Below are positions 28,960-36,345 of a stretch of DNA of 64,000 bases, one piece after another. The position numbers and the translations under genes were made by a program. Source of the stretch: Escherichia phage ECP2303; the sequence record PP261279.1. One strand, written 5' to 3'. How positions within the stretch are numbered: the first letter of the stretch is position 1; every line of letters begins with the position of its first letter. Under the pieces are notes generated by a model. It did no database searches. It was given only the letters and a program-made list of their open reading frames with translations, and was not told the DNA's origin.

Positions 28960-29058
28960 GGTGCTAGGTGATGGAATCGAACCACCTATGTATTCAACGA
29001 CTACCTCGTCTATTTTCAGGATTAAAAATCCTCGCCCTTGCCAAAGGGCTTACCTAGC
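28960..29058 (-). tRNA. atypical tRNA-like gene (99 nt; Lys-type UUUUUAA anticodon loop; ~30-nt insertion before the T-arm)
   Basis: Perfect 7-bp acceptor (GCTAGGT/ACCTAGC), D-arm GCCC-TTTGGCAA-GGGC, 4-bp anticodon stem AGGA/TCCT with loop UUUUUAA, extra hairpin ACGA-GGTAG-TCGT, T-arm GGTGG-TTCGATT-CCATC; too long for a canonical type I tRNA and not folding as a standard type II. Confidence 0.35.
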
Positions 29059-31404: not shown

Positions 31405-31908
31405 AGCAGACTCCTCTTCAAGTTATAGAAAAACTCACTGTATCGCTTTGTAACGAGCTTTTCTATCAAACTGGTGCGATTGCCTTACTTGGTATAGTTT
31501 ATATAGCTGTGGAGCGATTTAGGGGCCTTCTTGTCAGTTTCCACACATAAACTTTATCCGAACTCGCGCGGGAGGCTCTCAACCGACTCCTTCCGGCGCT
31601 GGCAAGCTTTCGTCGGTGGTACACATTAGTGCTCGGCCTTTGGCCTGCGCTATCGCTTCGCTCCCACACATGTTAACAGTCCTGCATGTATGCACTTCTG
31701 TTATTGTGTGCACTATGGAGGCCCGGCATCTCGCCCCTCGTAGGCGAGTGCCAATGAAGGGCCGACACTACCCATAATAAGTAATAAATTTAAAACATGG
31801 TACTTAGGATCTAGTATATTCTACATAAGTTAAGTATATGTACTTTAGTACCATAAGTACTAGATCTTTTATTTTTATTATTTAGTTATTTTAGTTATAT
31901 TCTTTATG

Positions 31909-31989
31909 TGTCCGTATCACGGACAGTTAGTGTCCGTATTACGGGCAGATGTGTCCGCGTGACGGACAGTAGTGTCCGTATCACGGACA
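31909..31989. repeat. array of four 17-bp palindromic iterons (TGTCCGT-ATC-ACGGACA) phased at 21-22 bp
   Basis: Copies at 31909-31925, 31931-31947 (variant), 31952-31968 (variant centre), 31973-31989; each has 7-bp inverted arms; read directly from sequence. Confidence 0.85.
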
Positions 31990-32064
31990 GTTACTAACCT
32001 CTGTTCCAGAGTGAACATAAAACATACAAATCCTTATAGTACAGATGTTTAAGTTTTTACTGGT

Positions 32065-32415
32065 CTAACCAGTTGTTGACATTCGAATAACTTCTTCTGG
32101 TGGCAAAACTTTGTAAAATGTGCATCTTTTACCTCTCCCTTGTGTGGATATTTCAACCACTCCTGCACATTCTAAAGTTTTAACGCACGCTGCTGCTTTT
32201 GTTTTCTTTATCCCAACATCTGCTGCAATTTTCCTTGTGCTGGGTGTGAAGCGTGAATTTTCTCCAAGCTTATACCAGTTGTGCAGATAGCAGTATACGA
32301 TCTTGTCATATAAGTCAAGAACAACAACCTCCCCAGTTGTGTCATTCAAAACTTTTGACATAGACAGTATTTCAAGGGGGACTTTAAGATATAGCAGCTT
32401 ATCCCCATCTTTCAT
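32065..32415 (-). CDS. winged-helix DNA-binding protein (putative transcriptional regulator or initiator)
   Basis: 116 aa; TRKIAADVGIKKTKAAACVKTLECAGVVEI has the helix-turn-helix pattern of wHTH regulators; gene ends ~75 bp from the iteron array. Confidence 0.5.
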   Translation of the reverse strand: MKDGDKLLYLKVPLEILSMSKVLNDTTGEVVVLDLYDKIVYCYLHNWYKLGENSRFTPSTRKIAADVGIKKTKAAACVKTLECAGVVEISTQGRGKRCTFYKVLPPEEVIRMSTTG

Positions 32416-32462: not shown

Positions 32463-33017
32463 TTACTCCCCGCTGTCAATAGCAAGACTCATTGCAATAC
32501 GGTATGCCTCTTCTAATGGTAAGAGTCTCCCCCACACATCCCAACCGACATCAAACTGCCTGCCAAACAACTGCTGTGTGGTTCCGTGAGCATGACCGAA
32601 CAGTTGGACTGATCCGTGAGGCTTTCTGTTCCACTTTGCAAACTGGTAATGGCTCATACAGATCAAATTCTTGTTGTGGCGAAGCTCGTAATAATCTACA
32701 ACCTCATGACCGAACTCTTTCATAATTCTGACAGTCGTTCTTGTGTCATGGTTACCACGAACAAGAATAATATGTCCGTTCAACATATTTAGAACATCTG
32801 GAAGCAGTTTGTTGATATTCTTATCATTAGTGCACGCAATATCCCCCAAGTGAAACACAGTGTCTGCAGGTGACACAACAGAGTTCCACTTGGTGATGAT
32901 TCCCGCATTCATACTGTCAAGATTGTGATCATACTGAGATCTGTGTTTTTGACATGAGTCGAACTCCATTACCCGCTGGTGGAGAAAGTGTGTGTCGCTT
33001 GTTACAAAGTATTTCAT
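32463..33017 (-). CDS. calcineurin-like metallophosphoesterase (putative RNA/DNA 3'-phosphatase)
   Basis: Start at ATG 33017 (GAGGAA RBS); motifs SDTHF, GDIACT, GNHD, GHAHG correspond to metallophosphatase motifs; coupled to the kinase gene. Confidence 0.65.
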   Translation of the reverse strand: MKYFVTSDTHFLHQRVMEFDSCQKHRSQYDHNLDSMNAGIITKWNSVVSPADTVFHLGDIACTNDKNINKLLPDVLNMLNGHIILVRGNHDTRTTVRIMKEFGHEVVDYYELRHNKNLICMSHYQFAKWNRKPHGSVQLFGHAHGTTQQLFGRQFDVGWDVWGRLLPLEEAYRIAMSLAIDSGE

Positions 33018-33024
33018 ACATTCC

Positions 33025-33435
33025 TCATTTAAGTTTAATGCAGTTTTTAAGCTGGCGTTCCATACGATCCACAACCCTGTCTGGAACATCATGAATGCTT
33101 TTATTACCATGGCGGTTTTCAACCACGATCACGGTATAACTATATCCATGACTGATCGCCATGTCAATATATTCTTGCACATATTTTTCTTTTGTAAACG
33201 TATTACTTACCACGATACGGTCGTAGCCCATACGCATCATATCTTCTACGTTATCTTTGCACCATTTTGCTGCAAGTGTTACTTTACTTGCATCCCAATT
33301 GTAATTGCCGTCATCGTCGTACCAGAACATATCGTTCTCAAAATGTGGATACAGACCTTCTAAAGATAGCGCATTTGCCAGTGTTGATTTGCCAGACCCT
33401 GGTAGACCACGCACGATATATAGCATTTTAGACAT
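33025..33435 (-). CDS. P-loop polynucleotide kinase-like protein
   Basis: Start at ATG 33435 (GGAGAG RBS); Walker A GLPGSGKST near N-terminus as in T4 Pnk kinase domain; 136 aa. Confidence 0.6.
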   Translation of the reverse strand: MSKMLYIVRGLPGSGKSTLANALSLEGLYPHFENDMFWYDDDGNYNWDASKVTLAAKWCKDNVEDMMRMGYDRIVVSNTFTKEKYVQEYIDMAISHGYSYTVIVVENRHGNKSIHDVPDRVVDRMERQLKNCIKLK

Positions 33436-33463
33436 AGTAACTCTCCGTTTTAATTTTAATGAT

Positions 33464-33492
33464 AGTATACCTAACTGTTTTGTTAATTTCAA
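33464..33492 (-). promoter_or_regulatory. sigma70-type promoter for the kinase/phosphatase operon
   Basis: Minus-strand TTGAAA, 17-nt spacer, TATACT; about 30 nt upstream of the kinase start. Confidence 0.4.
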
Positions 33493-33495
33493 GTG

Positions 33496-33524
33496 TTGAC
33501 ACCAGGTTATTTGTGTGGCAGAAT
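33496..33524 (+). promoter_or_regulatory. sigma70-type promoter opening the plus-strand block
   Basis: TTGACA, 17-nt spacer ending TGTGG, then CAGAAT; divergent from the minus-strand promoter. Confidence 0.4.
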
Positions 33525-33556
33525 AAAGGGACAAAATGACAAATGAGGAATGTATG

Positions 33557-34471
33557 ATGAAGTATTTTAATGCAGACGACCTGGTTGACAAAGGTCTTGT
33601 AACCAGCAGATATTACCCAGATCTTGGATTAAAGATCTACAAATATGCCAGAAAAGTATTCTACAACAATTTATGGCATTTGTCTCCGCGTTTACTAGAG
33701 TGCCGAGGCATTGTTGTCGGTAATGAAGGAAATGTTGTGGCATGGCCCTTCACAAAAGTGTTTAATTTGGGAGAAAACTCCACCAACCTGCCTGACAATA
33801 AACTTGTGACGGCGGTAGAGAAAAAGAACGGATTCCTTGGTGTGGTATCATCTCATAAAGGTGAACTATTGTTTTCAACAACCGGGTCTCTTGATTCTCC
33901 ATATTGTAACCTTGCAAAGGAAACCATCCAGGAGCAATGTGGTAATTTAGATCTCATCAAAAAGGTTATGGGCCATGAAAACATGACATTCATGTTTGAA
34001 ATTTGTCACCCTTCAGATCCGCATATTGTTCAGGAAGACCATGGCGCATATTTGATAGGTTGCAGATATAACGATTCTGGAATAATGCTACCAGAAGCAG
34101 CTTTAGATGGGATTGCCAAATACCTTGGTGCAAAACGTCCTCACACTGTGCGTGAAATTCCGTTCAGCTATGCAAAAGAATTAGCTGCAGAAACAAGAGG
34201 TGAAGGGTATATGATTCGTAAGCCTTACTACCCTTATGATCTGCAGCTGAAGATCAAGTCTCCATACTATTTGGCACGGAAGGCCGTAATGAGGGGTAAA
34301 GCTTGGAAGATTTGGGATGATGATATCTTTAAACGTATTGACGAAGAGTTTTACGGCATGGTAAACTTCATTCGTAACAATTACACAGAAGATGTGTGGA
34401 ACTGCCTCCTAGAGCAGGAACGCCGTGAGATACTTGACTGCTATTTCCACAACGAGGACTATATGCAATGA
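33557..34471 (+). CDS. RNA ligase 1 (T4 RnlA-like)
   Basis: LECRGIVVGNEG and FNLGEN match T4 Rnl1 (LECRGIMFEMDG, FNLNEN); nucleotidyltransferase motif I KKNGFL matches KEDGSL; start assigned to ATG with GAGGAA RBS (track start 33536). Confidence 0.75.
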   Translation: MKYFNADDLVDKGLVTSRYYPDLGLKIYKYARKVFYNNLWHLSPRLLECRGIVVGNEGNVVAWPFTKVFNLGENSTNLPDNKLVTAVEKKNGFLGVVSSHKGELLFSTTGSLDSPYCNLAKETIQEQCGNLDLIKKVMGHENMTFMFEICHPSDPHIVQEDHGAYLIGCRYNDSGIMLPEAALDGIAKYLGAKRPHTVREIPFSYAKELAAETRGEGYMIRKPYYPYDLQLKIKSPYYLARKAVMRGKAWKIWDDDIFKRIDEEFYGMVNFIRNNYTEDVWNCLLEQERREILDCYFHNEDYMQ

Positions 34472-34818
34472 AGAAGTTGATTGTGTGGCTGGATGACTTG
34501 AGAGATCCGTCAAATTATGGGCTCCCAGATGCTCTTTGGCTAAAGAATTCCTCTGAGTTTATGGATTTTATTAACGATAAGGGAAAGCTCTACAGGCGCG
34601 TTTCTGAGTGGCACATGGACAACGACCTTGGAGAGGTATTTGAAGGGTACGATTGCCTATCTATGCTGGAGGAAAAATTTGTATTTGGTAAGCCTCCTGT
34701 AGTTGACAACGTGAAGATTTTCGTGCATACTTCTAACCCATCAGCTGCTCGTAAATTCATGCTTGCTGCTGACTCGTTTAAAAAGTTTGGAATAGAGATT
34801 AAACAAAACATCTACTGA
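34468..34818 (+). CDS. hypothetical protein
   Basis: 116-aa ORF coupled between RNA ligase and Sir2-like genes; no motif recognised. Confidence 0.4.
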   Translation: MKKLIVWLDDLRDPSNYGLPDALWLKNSSEFMDFINDKGKLYRRVSEWHMDNDLGEVFEGYDCLSMLEEKFVFGKPPVVDNVKIFVHTSNPSAARKFMLAADSFKKFGIEIKQNIY

Positions 34819-34826
34819 GGACACTT

Positions 34827-35588
34827 ATGCGACGACTGATCATTATCTCCGGTGCTGGTTTGAGCGCTGAATCTGGTATCCCAACTTTCCGATCTGGTGG
34901 CACTGCAATGTGGGAGAATTTCAGCATCGATGAGGTGTGTAACATCCACACCTTTGCCAAGAACTACTATAAGGTTCATGACTTTTACAATGCACGGCGT
35001 GTAGCTCTTGGCAGTGTTGATCCTAACCTTGCACATCTCCGGATCGCTGAGTGGTATTCCCGCTGGTCTGGTCGTGTGATCAACCTGACCACCAATGTAG
35101 ATGATTTGCTGGAGCGTGCTGGTGTAAAACATGAAGATATTTTACATGTCCACGGATATTTGCCAGAAATAGTCTACAAGGATGATGAAGGGAGTAACGT
35201 CATTAAAGACATTGGATACTCTGAGGTAGATGCAAGCAAGTATACTTGGGTTAAGCCTAATGTAGTGTTCTTCGGAGAAGTAGCTCCAAAGTATACAGAC
35301 ATGTATGACCTGTTGACTTCTCTGACGAGCAATGATATGGTTATCCTTGTAGGGTGCTCCAACACAGTTATCAATTTTAACTGGGAGCTATTCCCTGCCT
35401 GTAATAAGGGGACCAAACTGCTGATCGTTAACAAATACGACTCACAGCATTTAGGGGAGAATGGCATTTCACGTAGTGACATTTACCAGTATGAGGATCG
35501 CGGCATCCCAGTTTGGTTTAACGGGGCTGTTGACGCTTTCTCTGATAAAACATTCATTGACATCGTAGAAAACTTTATGGAACTGTAA
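34827..35588 (+). CDS. Sir2-family (sirtuin-like) NAD-dependent protein, lacking the zinc ribbon
   Basis: GAGLSAESGIPTFR, TTNVDDLLERAG, catalytic-type HG (LHVHGYL), VVFFGE, LVGCS; no CxxC...CxxC zinc motif. Confidence 0.8.
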   Translation: MRRLIIISGAGLSAESGIPTFRSGGTAMWENFSIDEVCNIHTFAKNYYKVHDFYNARRVALGSVDPNLAHLRIAEWYSRWSGRVINLTTNVDDLLERAGVKHEDILHVHGYLPEIVYKDDEGSNVIKDIGYSEVDASKYTWVKPNVVFFGEVAPKYTDMYDLLTSLTSNDMVILVGCSNTVINFNWELFPACNKGTKLLIVNKYDSQHLGENGISRSDIYQYEDRGIPVWFNGAVDAFSDKTFIDIVENFMEL

Positions 35589-35602
35589 GCGGAGGCCTTT
35601 TA

Positions 35603-36316
35603 ATGCTGAATACTAAACTGATTGACAACTTGGAAAAACTGTCTCAGCCTGAAAACTACCTTTGGTCTGCCAACTGGGTGGAAAATTGGAACCGTGTAGC
35701 AGCTAAAGTGAAAAAATCATACACACCATTCGAACTTCAGCTGAGTTTCATTGAGGAAGAGTTCAATGAAGTTTTGGAAGAGTTGGAGAAAGGTGATGGT
35801 GGGGATCATCTCCTAAAAGAGGCCTGCGATCTTCACGTTGTCACAAGTTATGCCGCTTATCTTGTTAACGATAACCATGAAAAGTGGTCAAACCTGTTTG
35901 ATAATCCGCGAGGTCTTAAGTTTAAGATCGGTGAATTTTATGATACATTGATCGCTGCGAAAAATACCTCTAAGCAAAGAGCGTCTGCTTACCGCTTAGC
36001 AGAGTTGTCAACAGCTTTGCTGTTCCAGCTTCGCGGTGATGTGTGCGGGATGATGCGGAAGGTTCTAAAATCTAATGACAGCAAGTTTGCACGCGTCAAC
36101 CATCTGCGGTATTCACACGGTGCCAGTGCAGATATGCCTGCTGAACAACTTATCGAGTTGGAGATTAAAGATCTTGAGCGACGCTTTGATGGTCGCTATG
36201 AAGGTTTTGTTGCTAAAGAAGAATTCTACAACGGAAATAAAGTTATCATATTCCTCGACAGTAAAGGTAAGATTATGAAGCCTTCAAGCTTCAAGGATGT
36301 AACAGAATATATTTAA
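35603..36316 (+). CDS. MazG-like nucleotide pyrophosphohydrolase domain protein (putative)
   Basis: N-terminal FIEEEFNEVLEELEKGD resembles the EExxE/ExxE MazG motif; C-terminal 120 aa unassigned. Confidence 0.45.
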   Translation: MLNTKLIDNLEKLSQPENYLWSANWVENWNRVAAKVKKSYTPFELQLSFIEEEFNEVLEELEKGDGGDHLLKEACDLHVVTSYAAYLVNDNHEKWSNLFDNPRGLKFKIGEFYDTLIAAKNTSKQRASAYRLAELSTALLFQLRGDVCGMMRKVLKSNDSKFARVNHLRYSHGASADMPAEQLIELEIKDLERRFDGRYEGFVAKEEFYNGNKVIIFLDSKGKIMKPSSFKDVTEYI

Positions 36317-36322
36317 TAACAT

Positions 36323-36345
36323 AGCCGGGGCGATCCCGGCTTTAC
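36323..36345 (+). terminator. Rho-independent terminator
   Basis: GCCGGG-gcgau-CCCGGC followed by TTTACTTGTTT. Confidence 0.6.

What the first reader, a model, noticed from the sequence alone, without database searches (positions are those of the whole stretch)
32463..34471. RNA repair module: T4 Rnl1-like ligase divergent from a split polynucleotide kinase and calcineurin-type phosphatase
The plus-strand RNA ligase (LECRGI and KKNGFL motifs as in T4 RnlA) is transcribed divergently from a two-gene minus-strand operon encoding a P-loop kinase (GLPGSGKST) and a calcineurin-like metallophosphoesterase (GDxxD, GNHD, GHAHG). In T4 the kinase and a HAD-type phosphatase are fused in Pnk. Here the end-healing activities are separate genes and the phosphatase is of the metallophosphoesterase type, resembling the domain content of bacterial Pnkp/Hen1-type repair enzymes. 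Together with the tRNA cluster this suggests counter-defence against anticodon nucleases such as PrrC or RloC.
Basis: partly seen in the sequence, partly recalled or inferred. Interest (0 to 1): 0.6.

Follow-up and report, generated by a model that had tools for sequence, protein, structure and literature searches.

The report
Phage RNA break-repair gene cluster
This stretch of an rV5-type E. coli phage encodes a ligase, a small kinase and a phosphatase that most likely mend cut RNA such as tRNA; the gene set is real and widespread in phages, but it is already annotated and has been described in the literature, and it has never been tested at the bench.

Summary
The window is 100% identical to Escherichia phage ECP2309, an rV5-like Vequintavirus. 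It carries a metallophosphoesterase (32463-33017, -), a 136-aa P-loop kinase (33025-33435, -) and a 311-aa ligase (33536-34471, +), with all catalytic motifs intact.

By profile and fold, the ligase core belongs with T4 Rnl1 and fungal Trl1, but it lacks T4's C-terminal tRNA-specificity domain. The kinase folds like T4, Clostridium and Capnocytophaga polynucleotide kinases. The phosphoesterase is closest to Aquifex aq_1665, not to the lambda-phosphatase/CthPnkp type.

In 80 related viral loci (38 ligase clusters at 70% identity), the kinase is linked to the ligase in 31 clusters and the phosphoesterase in 32. Gene orders vary. One or two lineages have kinase and ligase fused.

The ligase operon continues through a cREC domain protein, a zinc-less sirtuin and a MazG-like protein to a terminator at 36323-36341. 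Iyer et al. 2022 described exactly this neighbourhood for phage V5.

The verdict is "already known" as a prediction, with moderate interest. The open lead is that invariant Trl1-like residues hint at sealing that depends on a 2'-phosphate.

The parts
32463..33017 (-). Binuclear metallophosphoesterase, 184 aa (rV5 gp076). Inferred to heal the 3' end by removing a 2',3'-cyclic or 3'/2'-phosphate.
   Evidence: Pfam Metallophos_2 and Metallophos. phrog_547 at 5e-51. Best solved relative is Aquifex aq_1665 (1xm7), 7e-11 with the single sequence and 2.6e-21 with the profile. All five metal and catalytic motifs are invariant in 39 homologues: D8-x-H10, G58-D59, G88-N89-H90, H123, G141-H142-x-H144.
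33025..33435 (-). Stand-alone 136-aa P-loop kinase of the polynucleotide-kinase fold (rV5 gp077). Inferred to phosphorylate 5'-OH RNA ends.
   Evidence: AAA_33 at 2.7e-10. phrog_2071 at 2e-58 and phrog_505 'polynucleotide kinase' at 3e-10. The family profile hits Pnkp1 4xrp, T4 Pnk 1ly1/1ltq and CthPnk 4gp7. The AF2 model has pLDDT 90. Foldseek top hits are PSTK, CthPnk and T4 Pnk with TM 0.72-0.77. G10, G15, K16, T18 and D35 are invariant; R108 is nearly invariant.
33436..33535 (.). Divergent intergenic control region between the kinase and the ligase.
   Evidence: Promoter-like sites: on +, TTGACA (33496), 17-nt spacer, CAGAAT with an upstream TG; on -, TTGAAA (33492), 17-nt spacer, TATACT. 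Shine-Dalgarno-like GGAGAG (minus strand) and AAGGGA (plus strand) can be read. This is also where the strand switch and the change of GC-skew sign fall.
33536..34471 (+). ATP-dependent RNA ligase, 311 aa (rV5 gp078). It has an Rnl1/Trl1-type nucleotidyltransferase core and a short, distinct helical C-terminal module.
   Evidence: PF09511 at 8e-15. phrog_562 at 2e-66. The profile of 40 homologues hits T4 Rnl1 2c5u at 2.6e-14 over T4 residues 51-250. The AF2 model has pLDDT 92.7. Foldseek top hits are the Trl1 ligase domain (9qw7, 6n0t) and T4 Rnl1, with E about 1e-12. Invariant residues in 305-aa numbering: R51, K68, F70, K90-x-N92-G93, E149, E217-G218, K233-x-K235.
34468..34818 (+). cREC protein (cyclic-phosphate-processing receiver domain), 116 aa (rV5 gp079). 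Its start overlaps the ligase stop by 4 nt.
   Evidence: PF20274 at 4.5e-14. phrog_1479 at 9e-35. D9, D10, R12, D51, D53 and N90-P91 are invariant in 8 homologues.
34827..35588 (+). Sirtuin (SIR2 family), 253 aa (rV5 gp080). It lacks the zinc-ribbon cysteines.
   Evidence: PF02146 at 1e-26. phrog_2162 at 8e-109. GAGLSAESGIPTFR, TTNVDDL and HVHG are present, and there is no Cys between HG and VVFFGE (sequence).
35603..36316 (+). MazG-like nucleotide pyrophosphohydrolase, 237 aa (rV5 gp081).
   Evidence: phrog_671 at 5e-22, with no Pfam hit. It is co-linked in the closest relatives. Iyer et al. 2022 name it as part of this neighbourhood.
36323..36341 (.). GC-rich hairpin followed by a T-run, a terminator-like site that closes the ligase-cREC-sirtuin-MazG operon.
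   Evidence: 8-pair stem with 6 G-C pairs, followed by TTACTTGTTT.

Best explanation
This is a phage-borne cassette that heals and seals broken RNA.

Inferred mechanism:
- The small P-loop kinase phosphorylates the 5'-OH end.
- The metallophosphoesterase opens or removes the phosphate at the 3' end.
- The ligase seals the break through a lysyl-AMP intermediate on K90 (305-aa numbering, i.e. K96 of the 311-aa ORF).

In rV5-type phages the ligase is co-transcribed with a cREC protein, a zinc-less sirtuin and a MazG-like pyrophosphatase. Iyer et al. predicted that these handle cyclic or 2'-phosphates and NAD+-derived by-products.

Shown here: the identity and fold class of each protein, intact catalytic residues, operon layout, and conserved linkage and fusion across phages.

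Inferred, not shown: the substrates (RNA, and tRNA in particular), the order of the reactions, and the counter-defence role.
For: - **Family and fold.**
- **Catalytic residues.** They are invariant across 38-40 homologues of each enzyme.
- **Linkage.** Of 80 viral loci whose ligases are 35-49% identical, 65 carry the kinase and 63 the phosphoesterase within 6 kb. All are on the ligase strand, in at least five different gene orders.
- **Linkage after clustering.** At 70% ligase identity there are 38 clusters. The kinase is present in 31, the phosphoesterase in 32 and both in 28.
- **Fusion.** Eleven loci (one or two lineages) encode a single 431-aa protein with AAA_33 at residues 15-114 and RNA_lig_T4_1 at 183-366. 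PHROG 8238 is a 737-aa family matched by the kinase at its N-terminus and by the ligase at its C-terminus.
- **Operon layout.** The ligase stop overlaps the cREC start, gaps of 8 and 14 nt follow, and a terminator lies after the MazG-like gene.
- **Literature.** Iyer et al. 2022 independently describe this neighbourhood for phage V5 and predict RNA-end clean-up. The T4 Pnkp/Rnl1 versus PrrC precedent is established knowledge, cited.
Against: - No member of this short-ligase, mini-kinase or phosphoesterase family was found biochemically characterised in the searched literature.
- The ligase lacks the T4 Rnl1 C-domain that confers tRNA specificity.
- The closest solved phosphoesterase relative has unknown function, and the clade with known RNA 3'-end activity (lambda-phosphatase/CthPnkp) was not matched.
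- The kinase fold also resembles tRNA and small-molecule kinases such as PSTK and gluconokinase.
- The fused kinase-ligase lineage has no phosphoesterase within reach.
- Proximity to tRNA genes is not conserved.
Confidence: 0.7

Rival explanations
1. Same cassette, different chemistry: a Trl1/Tpt1-like '2'-phosphate route'. The cyclic phosphate is opened to 3'-OH/2'-PO4 by cREC and/or the metallophosphoesterase. The ligase needs the 2'-PO4 to seal. The zinc-less sirtuin then removes the junction 2'-phosphate with NAD+, as Tpt1/KptA does.
For: - Iyer et al. 2022 predict the sirtuin step for phage V5.
- The top structural neighbours of the ligase are Trl1 ligase domains.
- Banerjee et al. list Asn150, His227, Arg334 and Arg337 as the Trl1-specific ligands of a sulfate that mimics the 2'-PO4.
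- The phage family has invariant N92 (motif I, KxNG) and H157. hhalign aligns 'FEICDPSDPHIV' with Trl1 'AELCDDSFEEHIL'.
- K243 and R247 are invariant and sit on the helix just after motif V.
- T4 Rnl1 has D, I, H and S at those positions.
- Macro, NUDIX and NAD+-salvage genes recur next to the cassette in other phages.
Against: - The Trl1-like residues are family-wide, but the sirtuin is linked in only 3 and cREC in only 4 of 38 ligase clusters.
- No Tpt1/KptA family was among the 25 most frequent neighbour families in either half of the census.
- hhalign did not resolve the register after motif V, and no coordinates were available for a superposition.
- The Trl1 C-domain itself is absent.
Confidence: 0.2
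2. The kinase and phosphoesterase act on small molecules rather than RNA ends. Candidates are NAD+/ADP-ribose derivatives or nucleotide second messengers of host immunity. On this view the cluster is mainly a nucleotide and NAD+ counter-defence island that also happens to hold a ligase.
For: - Iyer et al. call the kinase a 'nucleotide kinase' and allow that the phosphoesterases process ADPr>P.
- NAPRTase/NAMPT, Prs-like, NMNAT-like, NUDIX and Tad3 genes recur nearby in other phages.
- The kinase fold also matches gluconokinase and UMP-CMP kinase, with lower TM scores.
Against: - The kinase is fused directly to the ligase in one or two lineages.
- The kinase and phosphoesterase track the ligase far more often than they track any NAD+ gene.
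- The best kinase matches by profile and fold are polynucleotide and tRNA kinases.
Confidence: 0.07
3. The ligase gene is kept for a structural role, non-covalent catalysis of tail-fibre attachment as reported for T4 gp63. Its neighbours are then unrelated housekeeping genes.
For: GenBank and PHROG names carry 'tail fiber protein attachment catalyst' over from T4 gp63.
Against: - Those names come from annotation transfer only.
- All nucleotidyltransferase catalytic residues are invariant.
- The gene travels with a kinase and a phosphoesterase, and sits among early-type genes rather than tail genes.
Confidence: 0.03

Closest known systems
Sirtuin-centred phage RNA-repair neighbourhood, type 2, of Iyer, Burroughs, Anantharaman and Aravind 2022 (prototypes Escherichia phage V5 and Proteus phage Mydo)
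   Same: It is the same phage lineage and the same genes: T4-like ligase, cREC, nucleotide kinase, sirtuin, MazG and a calcineurin-like phosphoesterase.
   Different: That paper centres on the sirtuin and calls the phosphoesterase 'occasional'. Seen from the ligase, the kinase and phosphoesterase form the conserved core (31 and 32 of 38 clusters), and sirtuin, cREC and MazG are lineage-specific additions (3-4 of 38). Both accounts are computational only.
Bacteriophage T4 Pnkp + Rnl1 tRNA repair (counter to PrrC)
   Same: The same three activities are expected: 5'-kinase, 3'-end phosphatase and ATP-dependent sealing. The ligase core is homologous to Rnl1 and the kinase fold matches T4 Pnk.
   Different: Here the kinase stands alone at 136 aa. 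The phosphatase is a binuclear metallophosphoesterase rather than a fused HAD (DxDxT) domain. The ligase is 311 aa rather than 374 and lacks the T4 C-terminal tRNA-specificity domain. The genes are divergently arranged and joined to cREC, sirtuin and MazG.
Bacterial Pnkp/Hen1 (Clostridium thermocellum) and Pnkp1-Rnl-Hen1 (Capnocytophaga) RNA repair systems
   Same: Kinase, metallophosphoesterase and ligase content is shared at superfamily level. The kinase profile matches Pnkp1 and CthPnk.
   Different: The genes here are separate rather than one polypeptide. The phosphoesterase is aq_1665-like, with no match to the lambda-phosphatase clade. The ligase core is Rnl1/Trl1-like. No Hen1 methyltransferase is annotated within 14 kb.
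Fungal tRNA ligase Trl1 (LIG-KIN-CPD) with Tpt1
   Same: Trl1 ligase domains are the best structural neighbours of the ligase. Shared features are KxNG in motif I and the C-D-x-S...H-I-[VL] stretch after motif III. Kinase-ligase fusions exist in phages. In rV5 an NAD+-using enzyme lies next door.
   Different: There is no Trl1 C-domain and no 2H cyclic phosphodiesterase. The kinase-ligase fusion order is reversed (kinase N-terminal). The proposed 2'-phosphate remover would be a sirtuin, not a Tpt1/KptA ADP-ribosyltransferase.

Membership tests
T4 Rnl1 family (Rnl1 clade as defined by Shuman and co-workers) | Nucleotidyltransferase core with motifs I, III, IV and V, plus the Rnl1-type N-terminal sub-module (equivalents of T4 R54, K75 and the adjacent Phe) | tested here: met
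   PF09511 at 8e-15. The profile hits T4 Rnl1 at 2.6e-14 over residues 51-250. R51, K68, F70, K90, E149, E217, G218, K233 and K235 are invariant.
T4 Rnl1 family (Rnl1 clade as defined by Shuman and co-workers) | The T4-type C-terminal domain that confers tRNA anticodon-loop specificity. The clades are defined by their appended domains (PMC6379707). | tested here: not met
   The sequence alignment stops at T4 residue 250. The protein has only about 60 residues (three short helices, 264-299) after motif V. The NCBIfam equivalog TIGR02308 scores 39 bits against a cut-off of 242. No residue-level structural superposition was possible.
T4 Rnl1 family (Rnl1 clade as defined by Shuman and co-workers) | ATP-dependent sealing of RNA 3'-OH/5'-PO4 ends | not testable with these tools
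   This needs enzyme assays.
Polynucleotide 5'-kinase clade (T4 Pnk, CthPnk, Pnkp1) | P-loop GxxGxGK[ST], followed about 20 residues later by the general-base Asp, and a lid Arg | tested here: met
   G10, G15, K16, T18 and D35 are invariant and R108 is nearly invariant. D35 aligns with the Asp of 'VNRDDF' in Pnkp1.
Polynucleotide 5'-kinase clade (T4 Pnk, CthPnk, Pnkp1) | Fold closest to polynucleotide kinases rather than to nucleotide or sugar kinases | tested here: met
   Foldseek top hits are PSTK, CthPnk and T4 Pnk with TM 0.72-0.77; gluconokinase and UMP-CMP kinase score 0.48-0.59. E-values are modest (about 1e-5).
Polynucleotide 5'-kinase clade (T4 Pnk, CthPnk, Pnkp1) | Phosphorylation of 5'-OH polynucleotide ends | not testable with these tools
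   Indirect support only: fusion to the ligase in a 431-aa protein.
T4 Pnkp (bifunctional kinase-phosphatase) | Kinase fused to a HAD/DxDxT 3'-phosphatase domain | tested here: not met
   The protein is 136 aa with one domain only.
Calcineurin-like binuclear metallophosphoesterases | Motifs DxH, GD, GNH[DE], H and GHxH | tested here: met
   D8, H10, G58, D59, G88, N89, H90, H123, G141, H142 and H144 are invariant in 39 sequences.
Lambda-phosphatase / CthPnkp phosphatase clade (RNA 2',3'-cyclic phosphodiesterase and 3'-phosphatase) | Detectable sequence relationship to lambda phosphatase or the CthPnkp central domain | tested here: not met
   The family profile searched against all PDB sequences at E<=0.1 returns only aq_1665, GpdQ, 6unc and 3ck2.
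Bacterial Pnkp/Hen1 repair system | One polypeptide with kinase, phosphatase and ligase, plus a Hen1 2'-O-methyltransferase partner | tested here: not met
   There are three separate genes. No methyltransferase of that kind is annotated within 14 kb in the rV5 reference record. The Hen1 point rests on annotation only.
Sirtuin-centred phage RNA-repair neighbourhood type 2 (Iyer et al. 2022) | Sirtuin next to a T4-like ligase, cREC, a nucleotide kinase and MazG (with or without a calcineurin-like phosphoesterase) | tested here: met
   All six genes lie within 32463-36316. The paper names phage V5 as the prototype. The window is 97-100% identical to rV5-type phages.
Trl1-type (Rnl6) 2'-PO4-dependent ligases | Equivalents of the sulfate/2'-PO4 ligands Asn150, His227, Arg334 and Arg337, and the Trl1 C-domain | tested here: inconclusive
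   hhalign aligns N92 and H157 to Asn150 and His227. Invariant K243 and R247 lie at +8 and +12 from motif V, against +9 and +12 in Trl1, but the register was not resolved. No Trl1 C-domain similarity was found.

The most novel reading that the evidence does not exclude
The short phage ligase may be a Trl1-type enzyme that requires a 3'-OH/2'-PO4 end. On this reading the rV5 cluster is a complete viral '2'-phosphate' RNA repair pathway. cREC and/or the metallophosphoesterase would open the cyclic phosphate, and a zinc-less sirtuin would replace Tpt1/KptA as the NAD+-dependent remover of the 2'-phosphate. That would be a new enzymatic activity for a sirtuin and the first bacterial-virus counterpart of fungal and plant tRNA ligation chemistry.
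Probability: 0.2. Interest if true: 0.8.

Novelty: already known. Interest (0 to 1): 0.4.

Why it matters
tRNA-cutting defences such as PrrC, RloC, PARIS, retron-linked PtuAB and OLD are now recognised as common in bacteria. The only phage repair answer studied at the bench is T4 Pnkp/Rnl1.

This ligase type occurs in at least 665 deposited phage genomes infecting Escherichia, Pseudomonas, Vibrio, Klebsiella, Acinetobacter, Streptomyces and other hosts. In the sampled loci it usually travels with the kinase and phosphoesterase. It may therefore be a commoner phage RNA-repair solution than the T4 one, yet none of its enzymes has been characterised.

rV5-type phages are easy to handle (BASEL collection) and are used against E. 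coli O157. The cassette is therefore a practical system for two questions: which defences RNA repair defeats, and whether a sirtuin takes part in RNA end chemistry.

Tried and rejected
- **Single-sequence PDB searches.** Searches with the ligase and kinase found nothing useful. Family profiles were needed.
- **Non-coding RNAs.** Rfam searches found no known RNA family apart from tRNAs, both over the window at gathering thresholds and over 28.5-33.7 kb at E<=1.
- **Ligase-tRNA gene linkage.** I tested whether linkage of the ligase to tRNA genes is conserved. Only 16 of 60 related loci have a tRNA or tmRNA within 6 kb, and none of the closest relatives do. I therefore do not use the tRNA cluster as evidence.
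- **PdeM-like DNA-repair reading of the phosphoesterase.** The match is 20.6 bits against a cut-off of 150, so I rejected it.
- **Alternative 3'-healing enzyme in the fused lineage.** Pfam recognised none next to the fused kinase-ligase genes.
- **Trl1 alignment after motif V.** I tried to align the region after motif V to Trl1 with local and global hhalign. The local run stopped at motif IV, and the global run put the KxK motif out of register.
- **Model coordinates.** None were available offline to check whether N92, H157, K243 and R247 cluster in space.
- **Literature.** Searches for biochemical work on this cassette or on rV5 RNA repair found none.
Full report
**Where the window comes from.** The 3-kb stretch around the finding is 100% identical to Escherichia phage ECP2309 and 95-99% identical to about 90 other rV5-type Vequintavirus genomes. 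In the rV5 reference record the genes are gp076 'phosphoesterase', gp077 'ATPase', gp078 'RNA ligase 1 and tail attachment protein', gp079 'hypothetical', gp080 'Sir2' and gp081 'nucleotide pyrophosphohydrolase'. Other records already name gp077 a polynucleotide kinase.

**The observation.**
The one exception is that the phosphoesterase motif II reads GDIAC rather than GDxxD.
- The likely starts give a 184-aa phosphoesterase (32463-33017, -), a 136-aa kinase (33025-33435, -) and a 311-aa ligase (33536-34471, +; alternative starts at 33554 and 33557).
- The kinase and phosphoesterase genes are 7 nt apart.
- The 100-nt gap between kinase and ligase holds promoter-like hexamers on both strands and Shine-Dalgarno-like sequences. 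Transcription direction and GC skew also change sign here.
- A strong promoter-like site lies inside the kinase gene at 33167-33139. The rV5 record annotates it as P80, so the phosphoesterase may also have its own promoter.

**The ligase.**
- Pfam RNA_lig_T4_1 matches at 8e-15 and PHROG 562 (the gp63 family) at 2e-66. A plain sequence search of the PDB misses T4 Rnl1, and the NCBIfam equivalog for T4 RnlA scores 39 bits against a cut-off of 242.
- A profile of 40 homologues (42-50% identical to the query) finds T4 Rnl1 at 2.6e-14 over T4 residues 51-250.
- Invariant residues include R51, K68, F70, K90-x-N92-G93 (motif I), E149 (III), E217-G218 (IV) and K233-x-K235 (V).
- The AlphaFold model is confident (pLDDT 92.7). 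Its best structural neighbours are fungal Trl1 ligase domains and T4 Rnl1 (E about 1e-12), followed by archaeal Rnl3 enzymes.
- After motif V there are only about 60 residues, forming three short helices. Nothing aligns to the T4 C-terminal domain.
- RNA ligase clades are defined by their appended domains, and the T4 C-domain gives tRNA specificity (PMC6379707). The protein therefore shares the Rnl1/Trl1 core but fails that membership criterion for Rnl1 proper.

**The kinase.**
- It matches AAA_33 at 2.7e-10, PHROG 2071 at 2e-58 and PHROG 505 'polynucleotide kinase' at 3e-10.
- It belongs to a very large family of kinases of about 130 aa, with at least 7,988 database clusters.
- The family profile's best solved matches include Pnkp1 of the Pnkp1-Rnl-Hen1 complex, T4 Pnk, Clostridium Pnk and the tRNA kinase PSTK.
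- The model (pLDDT 90) superposes best on PSTK, CthPnk and T4 Pnk with TM 0.72-0.77.
- The P-loop and the Asp at the general-base position (D35) are invariant.

**The phosphoesterase.**
- All five binuclear-metal motifs are invariant in 39 homologues.
- The only close solved relative is Aquifex aq_1665, a protein of unknown function (2.6e-21). GpdQ follows distantly. Lambda phosphatase and the CthPnkp phosphatase domain are not matched.
- The likeness to bacterial Pnkp therefore exists only at superfamily level.

**Linkage elsewhere.** I fetched 80 viral loci whose ligases are 35-49% identical to this one and searched their ORFs with iterated profiles.
- The kinase is within 6 kb in 65 loci and the phosphoesterase in 63.
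- Both always lie on the ligase strand. Gene orders vary: PE-LIG-KIN, KIN-LIG-PE, KIN-PE-LIG, LIG-PE-KIN and LIG-KIN-PE.
- After clustering the ligases at 70% identity there are 38 clusters. The kinase is present in 31, the phosphoesterase in 32 and both in 28.
- Eleven loci, from one or two lineages, encode kinase and ligase as a single 431-aa protein. Pfam confirms this.
- This shuffled but persistent linkage, together with the fusion, is the main evidence that the three proteins work together on the same substrate.
- The divergent layout seen in rV5 is the exception. In the nearest relatives of about 146 kb, which include Salmonella phage PVP-SE1, the order is PE, LIG, cREC, KIN, SIR2, MazG, all on one strand.
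- The ligase type occurs in at least 665 deposited phage genomes from many host genera.

**The module is larger than reported.**
- The ligase stop overlaps the start of a cREC protein (PF20274, 4.5e-14). A sirtuin (1e-26) and a MazG-like protein (PHROG 671, 5e-22) follow, and a GC-rich terminator hairpin lies at 36323-36341.
- The cREC acidic residues (D9, D10, D51, D53) are invariant.
- The sirtuin keeps its NAD+-binding motifs and catalytic His but has no zinc-ribbon cysteines.
- Iyer et al. 2022 (PMC9503650) describe exactly this neighbourhood with 'Escherichia phage V5' as the prototype. They predict that the sirtuin removes 2'-phosphates in the manner of KptA.
- In my ligase-centred sample, cREC, sirtuin and MazG accompany only 3-4 of 38 clusters. 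They are lineage-specific additions to a three-gene core.

**Mechanism.**
[quoted passage not shown] It is functionally analogous to T4 Pnkp/Rnl1.
- Which RNA is repaired, and which defence is countered, is not shown.
- The tRNA cluster 3-4 kb away is not a conserved neighbour.

**A variant worth testing.**
- Banerjee et al. name Asn150, His227, Arg334 and Arg337 as Trl1-specific ligands of a sulfate that mimics the 2'-PO4.
- Using real Trl1 chain sequences recovered from the PDB, hhalign aligns the invariant phage residues N92 and H157 with Asn150 and His227. The stretch 'FEICDPSDPHIV' pairs with 'AELCDDSFEEHIL'.
- Invariant K243 and R247 lie on the helix just after motif V, at +8 and +12 from K235. 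In Trl1 the two arginines lie at +9 and +12.
- T4 Rnl1 has D, I, H and S at these four positions.
- The register after motif V could not be fixed, and no coordinates were available to check it. This remains a lead.
- It fits the cREC and sirtuin neighbours. It also fits the recurrence of Macro, NUDIX and NAD+-salvage genes near the cassette in other phages.
- It is weakened because most phages with the same residues have no linked sirtuin.

**Novelty and score.** The genes are annotated in GenBank, and the neighbourhood has been published for this very phage lineage. As a finding it is already known. No biochemical characterisation turned up. What this analysis adds:
- a ligase-centred view of a three-gene core;
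- the kinase-ligase fusions;
- the failed Rnl1 C-domain and lambda-phosphatase membership tests;
- the Trl1-like residues.

I score interest at 0.4.

Noticed in passing
window 28960-29058 (-): A 99-nt tRNA has the anticodon loop UUUUUAA, giving anticodon UUU (Lys). It also has an extra arm of about 27 nt that folds as its own hairpin, a class-II shape unusual for tRNA-Lys. ARAGORN cannot type it. Rfam scores it 35.5 bits. The MFE fold is a cloverleaf plus the extra arm (z = -3.7). It is at least 95% conserved in 119 Vequintavirus records, where it is annotated variously as nothing, tRNA-OTHER, tRNA-Lys or tRNA-Thr; the rV5 reference omits it. tRNA-Lys(UUU) is the target of PrrC and of PARIS, so this could be a nuclease-resistant replacement. 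There is too little sequence variation for a covariation test.
   Followed up: partly
window 31908-31993: Four tandem units of 21-22 nt each contain the palindrome TGTCCGT...ACGGACA. An AT-rich stretch (31800-31905) lies next to them. On the minus strand they sit just downstream of the HTH gene at 32065-32415 (DUF6945; PHROG 12838 'replication initiation protein') and near the cumulative GC-skew minimum. This looks like an iteron or operator array, and possibly a replication origin.
   Followed up: partly
window 31500-31790: A GC-rich stretch of about 290 nt has no convincing ORF; some records annotate a 56-aa GTG ORF here. It folds more stably than shuffled sequence on both strands (z = -2.6 and -3.2) and matches no Rfam family.
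   Followed up: partly
window 34827-35588 (+): The sirtuin keeps GAGxS..GIPTFR, TTNVDDL and the catalytic HG, but has no cysteines where the zinc ribbon normally lies, between HG and VVFFGE.
   Followed up: no
L035, L037, L039, L040, L041 (about 4.5-5.5 kb downstream of the fused kinase-ligase gene): Phages with the fused kinase-ligase gene also encode a tmRNA of about 400 nt with the tag AANDANYGDYALAA. A thioredoxin and an ATP-dependent DNA ligase lie between the fused gene and the tmRNA.
   Followed up: no
L057, L058, L060: In one phage lineage the phosphoesterase-ligase pair sits inside a very large tRNA array: 34 tRNA genes in 12.8 kb, flanking the pair on both sides. No kinase lies within reach.
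   Followed up: no
38 representative loci, within 1.8 kb of the core cassette: Recurrent neighbour families are ATP-dependent DNA ligase (10 ORFs), NAPRTase/NAMPT (5), Prs-like (4), a second metallophosphoesterase (5), Macro (2), NUDIX (2), NMNAT-like (2), Rv2179c-like 3'-5' exoribonuclease (2), and one each of HAD 'Swiss Army Knife', Rnl2-type ligase and Tad3. The cassette tends to lie in an island of nucleic-acid repair, NAD+ and counter-defence genes.
   Followed up: partly
window 33167-33139 (-): An 11/12 match to the sigma-70 consensus (TTGACA, 17-nt spacer, TATAGT) lies inside the kinase coding sequence, upstream of the phosphoesterase gene. The rV5 reference annotates it as promoter P80.
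   Followed up: no
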